From Escherichia coli (GTDB taxonomy: Bacteria > Pseudomonadota > Gammaproteobacteria > Enterobacterales > Enterobacteriaceae), in assembly GCF_045037415.1 (NCBI RefSeq), contig NZ_CP173438.1: DNA of 64,000 bases; one strand, 5' to 3'. A program made the position numbers. Shown here in pieces: positions 38,024-41,000 of the stretch; the stretch's first letter is position 1, and each line of letters opens with the position of its first letter.

Positions 38024-41000
38024 TAAGTGAACTGGTACAGAATCGTCTGGCTATTGGCGTTGGTAACTCTGCCAACGCTTGCGGAGGAGACGCCGTTACA
38101 GCTGGCGCTGCGTGGTGCGCAGCACGATCAACTGTATCAGCTGTCGTCATCAGGCGTGACCAAAGTCTCGGTATTACCTGACACGCTCACCACGCCATTA
38201 GGGAGTTTGTGGAAACTGTATGTTTACGCCTGGCTGGAGGATACCCATCAACCGGAGCAGCCATACCAGTGTCGCGGCAACTCCCCGGAAGAGGTTTATT
38301 GTTGTCAGGCTGGGGAGAGCATAACGCGCGATTCCGCGCTGGTACGTTCCTGTGGACTCTATTTTGCGCCGCAGCGGTTGCATATTGGCGCAGATATGTG
38401 GGGGCAATACTGGCAACAGCGTCAGGCACCTGCGTGGTTAGCGTCTCTTACTACACTGAAGCCAGAAACCTCGGTAACGGTTAAATCGCTGCTTGATTCA
38501 TTAGCGACGTTACCTGCGCAAAACAAAGCTCAGGAAGTCTTACTGGATGTGGTGCTGGACGAGGCGAAAATCGGTGTCGCATCCATGCTCGGTAGTCGGG
38601 TACGGGTGAAAACCTGGAGCTGGTTTGCCGATGATAAACAGGAAATCCGTCAGGGTGGTTTTGCTGGCTGGTTAACCGATGGTACACCGCTGTGGGTTAC
38701 TGGCAGTGGCACCAGCAAAACGGTACTGACCCGTTATGCGACGGCGCTTAATCGGGTTTTGCCAGTGCCGACGCAAGTTGCCAGTGGGCAATGTGTGCTG
38801 GTGGATCTGTTTGCTCGTTATCCGCTGAAGAAAGTTACTGAGGAAAAGAGTACGACGGCAGTCAAACTAGGCGTGCTCAATGGGCGCTATCGTGTGACGT
38901 TTGCCAATGGTAACCACATGACATTTGTCAGCCACGGTGAGACAACGTTACTGACGGTAAAGGGCAAACTGAAATTACAGTCGCATCTCGATCGTGAAGA
39001 GTACGTTGCCAGAGTTCTGGATCGCGAGGCGAAAAGTACGCCTCCTGAGGCAGCGAAAGCCATGACCGTGGCGATTCGCACGTTTTTACAGCAAAACGCC
39101 GATCGGGAAGGCGATTGCCTGACCATCCCGGACAGCAGCGCTACGCAGCGTGTTTCTGCTTCGCCAGCTACCACGGGGGCGCGAACGATGACCGCCTGGA
39201 CGCAGGATCTCATCTATGCGGGCGATCCGGTTCATTATCATGGCAGTCGCGCTACCGAAGGGACGCTTTCCTGGCGGCACGCTACTGCCCAGGCGGGGCA
39301 GGGAGAGCGTTATGATCAGATACTCGCGTTTGCTTATCCCGACAACAGCCTTAGCCGCTGGGGAGCGCCACGCTCAACCTGCCAGTTATTACCCAAAGCG
39401 AAAGCCTGGCTGGCGAAAAAAATGCCGCAGTGGCGGCGTATATTACAAGGTGAGACGGGATACAACGAACCAGACGTGTTTGCGGTCTGTCGTTTAGTCT
39501 CAGGTTTCCCCTATACCGATCGGCAGCAGAAACGGCTGTTTATTCGTAATTTCTTTACGCTTCAGGATCGGCTGGATTTAACCCATGAGTATCTGCACCT
39601 GGCCTTTGATGGTTATCCCACCGGGCTTGATGAGAACTATATCGAAACGCTGACCCGACAATTATTAATGGACTAATGCTATGCGAAAGATTTTTCTTCC
39701 GTTGTTACTGGTGGCGCTTTCGCCTGTCGCTCACAGTGAAGGTGTGCAGGAAGTCGAGATTGATGCACCGCTCTCTGGCTGGCATCCGGCAGAGGGCGAA
39801 GATGCCAGTTTTTCACAAACGATCAATTACCCGGCGTCGTCCGTCAACATGGCAGATGATCAAAATATCTCAGCGCAGATCCGCGGCAAAATAAAGAATT
39901 ATGCTGCGGCGGGTAAAGTTCAGCAGGGCCGGCTGGTGGTCAACGGTGCCAGTATGCCGCAGAGAATTGAATCAGATGGTTCTTTTGCACGCCCTTATAT
40001 TTTCACTGAAGGCAGCAACAGCGTGCAGGTCATCAGCCCAGATGGGCAAAGCCGACAAAAAATGCAGTTTTACTCAACGCCGGGTGCTGGGGCGATTCGC
40101 GCGCGTTTACGGCTGGTTCTCTCCTGGGATACGGACAATACCGACCTCGATCTTCATGTCGTTACGCCTGACGGTGAACATGCCTGGTACGGTAACACAG
40201 TGCTGAAAAACAGTGGCGCACTGGATATGGATGTCACGACAGGGTACGGACCCGAGATTTTCGCCATGCCAGCGCCAGTTCACGGCCGTTATCAGGTGTA
40301 TATCAACTACTTCGGCGGGCGCAGTGAAACGGAATTAACTACGGCCCAACTGACGCTGATCACCGATGAAGGGTCGGTCAATGAGAAACAGGAAACTTTT
40401 ATTGTACCGATGCGTAATGCTGGCGAGCTGACGCTGGTGAAAAGTTTTGACTGGTGATTAATGGGGTAACCTTCGCCGTCGATGTTCAAGAAAACGCCCG
40501 ATAACTTTCGCTATCGGGCGTTTTTATTGGTTAATTCAACCGCTCAATCACCATCGCAATTCCCTGGCCGCCACCAATGCATAGTGTTGCCAGCCCCAGC
40601 GTTTTATCGCGTGCCTGCATTGCATGTAATAGTGTGACCAGAATACGAGCACCACTGGCACCGATAGGATGTCCGAGCGCGATGGCCCCGCCGTTGACAT
40701 TCACTTTCTCAGGATCAAAGCCCAGGGTTTTCCCAACGGCAAGGAACTGTGCAGCAAATGCTTCATTAGCCTCAATGAGATCAATATCCGCCAGTTGCAG
40801 CCCCGCCAGTTGTAACGCTTTTTGCGTAGCAGGTACTGGCCCCATACCCATCAATGCGGGGGGCACGCCACCGCTGGCATAACTTTTAATGCGTGCCAGG
40901 GGATTCAGGCCTGCTGCCAGCGCCGCAGATTCTTCCATAATCACCAGAGCGGCAGCACCGTCGTTAATACCTGACGCGTTCCCGGCGGTGACTGTTCCTG

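What the first reader, a model, noticed from the sequence alone, without database searches (positions are those of the whole stretch)
40491..40524. Strong bidirectional terminator isolating the yfa operon from the ato operon
A 13-bp perfect stem flanked by an A-run on one side and a T-run on the other can terminate both the yfaP and atoB transcripts in a 73-bp convergent spacer.
Basis: seen in the sequence. Interest (0 to 1): 0.15.

Follow-up and report, generated by a model that had tools for sequence, protein, structure and literature searches.

The report
Shared terminator hairpin between yfaP and atoB
A small hairpin-forming sequence between two E. coli genes that face each other has all the sequence features of an ordinary two-way transcription stop signal; it is real and conserved, but it is a textbook kind of element and its strength has not been measured.

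Summary
AAAACGCCCGATA (40491-40503) and TATCGGGCGTTTT (40512-40524) form a perfect 13-nt inverted repeat with an 8-nt spacer. It lies in the 73-bp gap between convergent yfaP (+, ends 40457) and atoB (-, ends 40531) of E. coli. The 13 bp already include the A-run and the T-run, so the G+C-rich core is only 9 bp.

Both strands encode a stable hairpin followed directly by a U-rich tail (+: UUUUUAUU; -: UUUUCUUG). That is the signature of a bidirectional Rho-independent terminator. The hairpin is single-copy and present in all 3830 E. coli genomes that carry the ato cluster. One stem pair occurs as G-C, G-T and A-T, a compensatory series, though statistically weak.

"Strong" and "both directions" remain untested, because I found no mapped RNA 3' end for this site. 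The two directions differ:
- The atoB-sense hairpin is more stable, but it starts only 10 nt after the stop codon, where ribosomes can suppress termination.
- It has the poorer U-tract.
- It carries a C·A mismatch in 31% of genomes.

In 1542 genomes an old deletion has removed the hairpin together with the ato cluster. Verdict: an ordinary instance of a known kind, of low interest.

The parts
39681..40457 (+). yfaP coding sequence, last gene of the yfaA-yfaT-(alpha-2-macroglobulin gene, yfaS in K-12)-yfaQ-yfaP cluster; stop codon TGA at 40455-40457
   Evidence: ORF list; RefSeq annotation of the 100% identical strain SK1144
40458..40530 (.). 73-bp convergent intergenic spacer
40491..40494 (+). 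A-run (AAAA). On the - strand it is the TTTT that starts the U-tract of the atoB-sense transcript (UUUUCUUG, 40494 down to 40487)
   Evidence: sequence; invariant in 9 E. coli alleles
40495..40503 (.). left arm of the G+C-rich core stem, CGCCCGATA
40504..40511 (.). loop. On the + strand it is an 8-nt loop ACUUUCGC. On the - strand GCGAAAGU adds G·U and C-G pairs and leaves a GAAA tetraloop
   Evidence: strand folding; ViennaRNA fold of the core
40512..40520 (.). right arm of the core stem, TATCGGGCG
40521..40528 (+). T-run TTTTTATT, the U-tract of the yfaP-sense transcript. The 3' end is predicted (inferred, not mapped) at about 40527-40529
   Evidence: sequence; TTTTT invariant in 9 alleles
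40531..41715 (-). atoB coding sequence (acetyl-CoA acetyltransferase), last gene of atoDAEB; stop codon TAA at 40533-40531. The atoB-sense 3' end is predicted (inferred) at about 40486-40488

Best explanation
The element is a canonical Rho-independent (intrinsic) transcription terminator shared by two convergent operons. When RNA polymerase leaves yfaP on the + strand, the nascent RNA folds CGCCCGAUA-ACUUUCGC-UAUCGGGCG. This happens just as the weak rU:dA hybrid of the following UUUUUAUU sits in the active site, and the complex dissociates. Polymerase leaving atoB on the - strand transcribes the complement. That RNA folds into an 11-pair stem capped by a GAAA tetraloop and is followed by UUUUCUUG. 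Each flanking A-run is simply the template for the other direction's U-tract. The result is that neither operon makes antisense RNA across the other, and each mRNA ends in a 3' hairpin that also protects it from exonucleases. What is shown: the structure, the tails, the position, the conservation and the pairing-preserving variation. What is inferred: termination itself, its efficiency and its use in both directions. I expect unequal efficiencies. The yfaP direction is optimally placed, and the atoB direction is probably attenuated when translation is tightly coupled.
For: The inverted repeat is perfect and far above chance. Folding z-scores are -7.0 and -7.6 on the two strands. Core hairpin energies are -14.6 kcal/mol (+) and -19.4 kcal/mol (-), and U-rich tails start directly after the stem on both strands. 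A d'Aubenton-Carafa-type score is positive in both directions, about +19 and +24. I derived it by hand from the energies and T-scores, and the formula is recalled from memory. The hairpin lies between the stop codons of the last genes of two convergent operons. It occurs once per genome and in all 3830 ato-carrying E. coli genomes. The A-run, the T-run and 11 of 13 pairs are invariant in 9 alleles while the spacer on both sides varies. Pair 40496/40519 occurs as G-C (958 genomes), G-T (677) and A-T (1666, including K-12). Pair 40503/40512 is A-T, or G-T in 505 genomes. All cells pair on the + strand RNA. Switches through G·U intermediates are the documented pattern of terminator evolution (PMC5381666). 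Terminators preceded by an A-tract are documented to work in both directions (PMC4824070). The same A4-stem-T4 design with unrelated loops turns up in six unrelated bacteria, so it is a generic solution and not a special element.
Against: There is no experimental 3' end. Neither atoB nor yfaP appears in the Term-seq tables of PMC7815308 or in the 16 supplementary files of PMC10687069. This may only reflect low expression of both operons in standard media. The covariation is a single compensatory event and is not significant against shuffles (117 of 500). The consensus scan did not call the site. In the atoB direction the stem starts 10 nt after the stop codon, a distance at which the tR2 terminator was largely repressed by the ribosome. 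Also in that direction 31% of genomes carry a C·A mismatch.
Confidence: 0.78

Rival explanations
1. The terminator is effectively one-directional. The hairpin stops the yfa transcript efficiently, but most atoB transcripts read through it because the ribosome finishing atoB covers the 5' arm. They are then ended further on, inside antisense yfaP, by Rho or by collision with converging polymerases.
For: The atoB stop codon is only 10 nt from the core stem, against 37 nt for yfaP. The model terminator tR2 fell from about 0.9 efficiency to below 0.1 at a 5-bp distance and needed more than 27-30 nt for full efficiency (PMC4824070). The atoB-sense U-tract is interrupted (UUUUCUUG). Both common single-step variants (677 + 505 genomes) are G·U on the yfaP-sense RNA but C·A mismatches on the atoB-sense RNA.
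Against: The atoB-sense hairpin is the more stable one (-19.4 kcal/mol with a GAAA tetraloop). It stays at -14.7 to -15.6 kcal/mol even with the mismatches. The A-run that gives the atoB-sense U-tract is invariant. Two variants cannot establish a directional bias (chance 0.25). The distance effect was sequence-specific in the cited study.
Confidence: 0.15
2. The hairpin is mainly an RNA 3'-end stabiliser and not the site of termination. Transcription ends downstream, by Rho or by collision, and 3'-to-5' exonucleases trim the RNA back to the hairpin.
For: Any stable 3' hairpin blocks exonucleases. Trimming of Rho-dependent transcripts back to a hairpin is described in E. coli (my own knowledge, not checked here). 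The stability is shown.
Against: U-tracts directly abut the stem on both strands, and the A- and T-runs are invariant. A pure stabiliser would not need this. The two roles are not mutually exclusive.
Confidence: 0.05
3. The palindrome works at the DNA level, as a protein-binding site or as a recombination or mobile-element site linked to the ato presence/absence polymorphism.
For: The left edge of the ato insertion/deletion lies 33 nt away, at the yfaP stop codon. In one strain IS200C has inserted at the foot of the hairpin.
Against: The element is single-copy and is not a repeat family. Rfam gives no match above a family's gathering score. The stem varies through G-T to A-T in a way that keeps RNA pairing rather than a fixed DNA recognition sequence. 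The ato-less haplotype is explained by a simple old deletion that leaves an atoS 5' remnant, with no role for the hairpin.
Confidence: 0.02

Closest known systems
Bidirectional Rho-independent (intrinsic) terminators between convergent genes, i.e. an A-tract, hairpin and U-tract design (described in the literature cited in PMC4824070)
   Same: A single G+C-rich hairpin shared by two convergent transcription units. An A-run lies 5' and a T-run 3', so each strand encodes a hairpin plus a U-tract. It sits in a short intergenic spacer right after two stop codons.
   Different: Nothing in kind. The details of this instance are a 9-bp core, an asymmetric loop (8 nt on one strand, a GAAA tetraloop with 2 extra pairs on the other), unequal U-tracts and unequal stop-codon distances (37 versus 10 nt). 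Activity has not been measured.
Overlapping, collision-driven bidirectional terminators found by SEnd-seq (Ju et al. 2019, as summarised in bioRxiv 10.1101/2022.10.23.513370)
   Same: It lies between a convergent gene pair, and a hairpin forms in the region common to both transcripts.
   Different: Those sites are described as not resembling intrinsic terminators and as depending on polymerase collisions. This site has canonical U-tracts on both sides and needs no such mechanism. Whether it appears in that data set could not be checked, because the paper is not held.
REP/BIME extragenic palindromes
   Same: It is an intergenic palindrome at the 3' ends of genes that could stabilise mRNA.
   Different: It is single-copy per genome, has no REP-like sequence, and has flanking A/T runs. 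REP-like palindromes do occur elsewhere in the window (for example 50818-50850 and 50955-50986) and look different.

Membership tests
Rho-independent (intrinsic) terminator | Stable G+C-rich RNA hairpin with a short loop | tested here: met
   The core is 9 bp with 6 G-C pairs. Energies are -14.6 kcal/mol (+, 8-nt loop) and -19.4 kcal/mol (-, 11 pairs, GAAA loop). z-scores are -7.0 and -7.6.
Rho-independent (intrinsic) terminator | U-rich tract immediately 3' of the stem | tested here: met
   The + strand has UUUUUAUU (40521-40528) and the - strand has UUUUCUUG (40494-40487). T-scores are 4.5 and 3.8.
Rho-independent (intrinsic) terminator | Position at the end of a transcription unit, downstream of a stop codon | tested here: met
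   It starts 37 nt after the yfaP stop codon and 10 nt after the atoB stop codon. Both are the last genes of their clusters.
Rho-independent (intrinsic) terminator | RNA 3' ends at the U-tract, with factor-independent release in vitro | not testable with these tools
   This needs an experiment. Published 3'-end tables that could be searched list nothing for atoB or yfaP. Other data sets are not held.
Bidirectional intrinsic terminator | One hairpin between convergent genes, with an A-tract 5' complementary to the U-tract, so that both strands encode a terminator | tested here: met
   AAAA 40491-40494 and TTTT(T) 40521-40525 flank the core. Both are invariant in 9 alleles.
Bidirectional intrinsic terminator | Measured termination in both orientations | not testable with these tools
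   No data were found. Sequence-level asymmetries predict unequal efficiency.
Structured RNA under selection (covariation) | Compensatory base-pair changes that support the stem | tested here: inconclusive
   One pair shows G-C, G-U and A-U and another shows A-U and G-U. All cells pair (100%), but 117 of 500 shuffles do as well, and all variation is within one species.
REP/BIME or other repeated palindromic elements | Many copies per genome with a shared consensus | tested here: not met
   There is a median of 1 place per genome, 2 at most, in 3830 genomes.
Any curated Rfam RNA family | A score at or above the family's gathering threshold | tested here: not met
   The best match is STnc310 at 22.2 bits against a gathering score of 40, and it hits both strands. 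This is a generic resemblance between terminator hairpins.

The most novel reading that the evidence does not exclude
The two directions may be under unequal selection and have different functions. On this reading the hairpin evolves under constraint from the yfaP-sense RNA only: both common single-step variants are G·U there and C·A mismatches on the atoB-sense RNA. The atoB-sense terminator sits 10 nt from the stop codon, so it would be a translation-sensitive leaky stop. Induced ato transcription would then send antisense RNA into the yfa (alpha-2-macroglobulin) operon. A related possibility concerns the 28% of E. coli that lost the hairpin with the ato cluster: a replacement hairpin may have been sharpened out of the atoS 5' remnant.
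Probability: 0.1. Interest if true: 0.3.

Novelty: already known. Interest (0 to 1): 0.08.

Why it matters
It matters little beyond annotation. The hairpin marks the likely 3' ends of the atoDAEB and yfa transcription units in E. coli. It is also a compact natural candidate for a two-way insulator part. The allele series (G-C, G·U, A-U across 3830 genomes) gives a small ready-made set of natural variants. They could be used to test how a wobble on one strand, which is a mismatch on the other, affects a bidirectional terminator. The unequal stop-codon distances make the site a convenient natural case for the ribosome-proximity effect on termination.

Tried and rejected
1. The consensus terminator scan did not report the site. 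I attribute this to stem extension into the A/T runs and rely on direct folding instead.
2. The Rfam scan at E-value up to 10 gave only sub-threshold generic hairpin matches (STnc310, Thr_leader), which I rejected.
3. The search for experimental 3' ends found nothing:
   - no paper in the library holds both 'yfaP' and 'atoB';
   - the search on atoB, terminator and atoDAEB gave only metabolic-engineering papers;
   - the supplements of PMC7815308 and PMC10687069 hold no atoB or yfaP entry and no K-12 coordinate near 2327300;
   - the supplements of PMC9023263, PMC4161252, PMC12259150 and PMC8848933 are not held;
   - Ju et al. 2019 (PMC6814526) is not held.
4. Cross-species conservation: a pattern scan of 100,044 species' genomes found the hairpin only in E. 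coli, plus six unrelated bacteria with different loops. So there is no orthologous series outside E. coli with this exact stem.
5. Repeat-family and mobile-element readings are rejected, because the hairpin is single-copy and the ato-less haplotype is a plain deletion.
6. The small ORFs that overlap the spacer (40482-40637 +, 51 aa; 40307-40489 -, 60 aa) were not pursued. They overlap the annotated genes antisense or out of frame, and no gene is annotated there in RefSeq.

Full report
**Observation.** The sequence at 40480-40539 reads cgatgttcaa gaaaacgccc gataactttc gctatcgggc gtttttattg gttaattcaa. The repeat finder reports arms 40491-40503 (AAAACGCCCGATA) and 40512-40524 (TATCGGGCGTTTT), 13 nt, 100% complementary, 8 nt apart. 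The neighbouring ORFs are 39681-40457 (+, 258 aa) and 40531-41715 (-, 394 aa). The window is 100% identical here to E. coli strain SK1144, whose RefSeq annotation names them yfaP and atoB. Upstream of yfaP lie yfaA, yfaT, an alpha-2-macroglobulin gene and yfaQ. Behind atoB lie atoE, atoA, atoD, atoC and atoS.

One correction is needed. The '13-bp stem' already contains the A-run and the T-run as four A:T pairs. The G+C-rich core is 9 bp (40495-40503 with 40512-40520, 6 G-C pairs), and only T40525 extends the T-run beyond the repeat.

**Chance.** Perfect inverted repeats with arms of at least 13 nt and loops of 3-10 nt give 5 arm pairs in the window, against a mean of 0.01 in 100 shuffles. The 45-nt segment folds at -22.1 kcal/mol (+ strand, z = -7.0) and -25.1 kcal/mol (- strand, z = -7.6), and none of 200 shuffles folds as well. 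The feature is real. The consensus terminator scan did not list it. I infer that its stem extension absorbs the A/T runs, leaving too few T in the tail window. I did not test this.

**Anatomy on the two strands.**
- The yfaP-sense RNA folds CGCCCGAUA / UAUCGGGCG around an 8-nt loop ACUUUCGC. The core energy is -14.6 kcal/mol and the tail is UUUUUAUU.
- The atoB-sense RNA has the loop GCGAAAGU. This adds a G·U and a C-G pair and closes a GAAA tetraloop, giving 11 pairs at -19.4 kcal/mol. The tail is UUUUCUUG.
- T-tail scores are 4.5 and 3.8. With the d'Aubenton-Carafa discriminant, whose formula I recall from memory, both directions score positive, about +19 and +24. I derived these values by hand from the numbers.
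- The core stem starts 37 nt after the yfaP stop codon but only 10 nt after the atoB stop codon.

**Population evidence.** The 38-nt hairpin segment occurs in 3830 of 5426 complete E. coli genomes, a median of once per genome and never more than twice. It is therefore not a repeat family. Every genome with the ato cluster next to yfaP has it.

Exact-match counts for the four main alleles are:

| Allele | Stem state | Genomes |
|---|---|---|
| Window allele | G-C at 40496/40519 | 958 |
| Intermediate | G-T at 40496/40519 | 677 |
| K-12 MG1655 allele | A-T at 40496/40519 | 1666 |
| Top-pair variant | 40503/40512 changed from A-T to G-T | 505 |

About 24 genomes carry rarer variants, for example a loop G-to-A change. 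In nine aligned alleles the A-run, the T-run, 11 of 13 pairs and nearly all of the loop are invariant, while the spacer on both sides varies.

Counted formally, 100% of cells pair on the + strand RNA and one pair changes on both sides. With 7 distinct, closely related sequences, 117 of 500 shuffles do as well. The covariation is therefore suggestive but not significant. The route G-C to G·U to A-U is the pattern documented for intrinsic terminators in Bacillus cereus (PMC5381666).

**Other checks.**
- No Rfam family reaches its gathering score. The best match is STnc310 at 22.2 bits against 40, it hits both strands, and I read it as a generic resemblance between terminator hairpins.
- A scan of one genome from each of 100,044 species for AAAACRCCCGATR-N8-TATCGGGYGTTTT found E. 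coli plus six unrelated bacteria: a Clostridia MAG, Epilithonimonas, Alteromonas, a Myxococcota MAG, Flavobacterium and Salegentibacter. Their loops and flanks are unrelated. I read these as independent inventions of the same generic design of A-run, G+C stem and T-run.

**Mechanism.** The best-supported explanation is a canonical Rho-independent terminator used from both sides. The hairpin forms in the nascent RNA while the weak rU:dA hybrid occupies the polymerase. Each A-run is the template of the opposite direction's U-tract. The literature states that terminators preceded by an A-tract can act bidirectionally, that their efficiencies can differ between directions, and that this may reflect different distances to the upstream genes (PMC4824070).

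That paper also shows how distance matters. The tR2 terminator was almost fully repressed when it lay a few bp from a translated stop codon: efficiency fell from about 0.9 to below 0.1 at 5 bp. It needed more than 27-30 nt for full efficiency, and intermediate distances behaved in a sequence-specific way.

Applied here, the yfaP direction (37 nt) should work at its intrinsic efficiency. The atoB direction (10 nt) may be attenuated when translation is tightly coupled. In addition, the two common wobble alleles (1182 of 3830 genomes, 31%) are C·A mismatches in the atoB-sense RNA. They lower its hairpin energy to -14.7 and -15.6 kcal/mol.

**Experimental record.**
- No paper in the library mentions both yfaP and atoB.
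- The Term-seq tables of Adams et al. 2021 (PMC7815308) and the 16 supplementary files of the TRS paper (PMC10687069) hold no entry for either gene or for K-12 coordinates near 2327300.
- Other relevant data sets are not held.
- This absence is weak evidence. From my own knowledge, ato is induced by acetoacetate and the yfa cluster is poorly expressed in laboratory media.

**Context seen along the way.**
- 1542 genomes, including O157:H7, lack atoSCDAEB. Their similarity to the window breaks exactly at the yfaP stop codon.
- The roughly 200 bp that follow yfaP in those genomes align at 73-78% identity to the 5' end of atoS and to the atoS-rcsC intergenic region (window 47635-47703 and 47825-47885). 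The ato-less state is therefore an old deletion of about window 40458-47634, and it removed the hairpin with the operon.
- In that remnant a 14-pair hairpin with a 20-nt loop and a delayed T-rich tail is present. Where the intact atoS sequence has 10 of 14 possible pairs at the same positions (my reading of the alignment), the remnant has 14 of 14. Whether it is a replacement terminator is open.
- In strain AVS0193 an IS200C element sits at the foot of the hairpin, between window 40489 and 40490.

**Comparison and verdict.** The element matches bidirectional intrinsic terminators in every feature that can be tested from sequence. It is not a REP element and not a member of any Rfam family. Nothing in its sequence calls for the collision-driven mechanism proposed for terminators that do not resemble intrinsic ones. 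It is an ordinary, well-formed instance of a textbook element in the best-studied bacterium. Novelty: already known in kind. Interest: low. The only mildly interesting open points are the directional asymmetry and the fate of yfa termination in ato-less strains.

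Noticed in passing
window 40458-47871 (versus L002 6259-6458): The whole atoSCDAEB cluster is a presence/absence polymorphism in E. 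coli: 3830 genomes carry it and 1542 (including O157:H7) lack it. In the ato-less genomes the homology breaks exactly at the yfaP stop codon. The roughly 200 bp left behind are a 73-78% identical remnant of the atoS 5' end and its upstream region, so this is an old deletion that removed the terminator hairpin as well.
   Followed up: partly
L002 6311-6358 (ato-less strain 2009C-4687): About 55 nt downstream of yfaP in ato-less strains there is a 14-pair hairpin (CGATCTGCCGACGC ... GCGTCGGCAGATTG) with a 20-nt loop, followed by GTCATTTCTTATTTTTCG. It lies in the atoS remnant. The intact atoS sequence pairs at only 10 of these 14 positions (my reading of the alignment). It may be a replacement terminator or stabiliser for yfaP, but the tail and the loop are not canonical.
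   Followed up: partly
L009 2290-2999 (strain AVS0193), equivalent to window 40489/40490: An IS200C element (tnpA annotated) is inserted in the spacer right at the foot of the hairpin, between ...CGATGTTCAA and GAAAACGCCCG. The hairpin itself is left intact.
   Followed up: no
window 40496/40519 and 40503/40512: Both common single-step stem variants (677 and 505 genomes) are G·U in the yfaP-sense RNA and C·A mismatches in the atoB-sense RNA. The reciprocal intermediate (A·C on the + strand) is found in at most 7 genomes. Two events cannot establish a directional bias.
   Followed up: partly
L011-L012 and L014-L017: The same stem with A4/T4 runs (AAAACRCCCGATR ... TATCGGGYGTTTT), but with unrelated loops and flanks, occurs in six unrelated bacteria: a Clostridia MAG, Epilithonimonas, Alteromonas, a Myxococcota MAG, Flavobacterium and Salegentibacter. 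These look like independently arisen terminator-type hairpins.
   Followed up: partly
window 20613-20645, 62741-62771, 50818-50850, 50955-50986, 11473-11502, 60882-60910: Other long perfect inverted repeats in the window (arms 11-14 nt). 20613-20645 (CCGTCCCCTCTCCC-GCAAG-GGGAGAGGGGACGG, then TTTGGTG) looks like another terminator. 50818-50850 and 50955-50986 look like REP-type palindromes. None were examined further.
   Followed up: no
window about 34512-39026 (alpha-2-macroglobulin gene upstream of yfaQ; coordinates converted by hand from L001 2313-6827): The alpha-2-macroglobulin family gene (yfaS) is annotated as one intact 4515-bp CDS in the strain identical to the window. In K-12 MG1655 it is annotated as a pseudogene (b4500).
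   Followed up: no
window 39500-41500: The consensus terminator scan missed this textbook-looking hairpin and instead listed three weaker sites inside coding sequence, a number no higher than in shuffles. Its stem extension probably swallows the A/T runs of bidirectional terminators.
   Followed up: no
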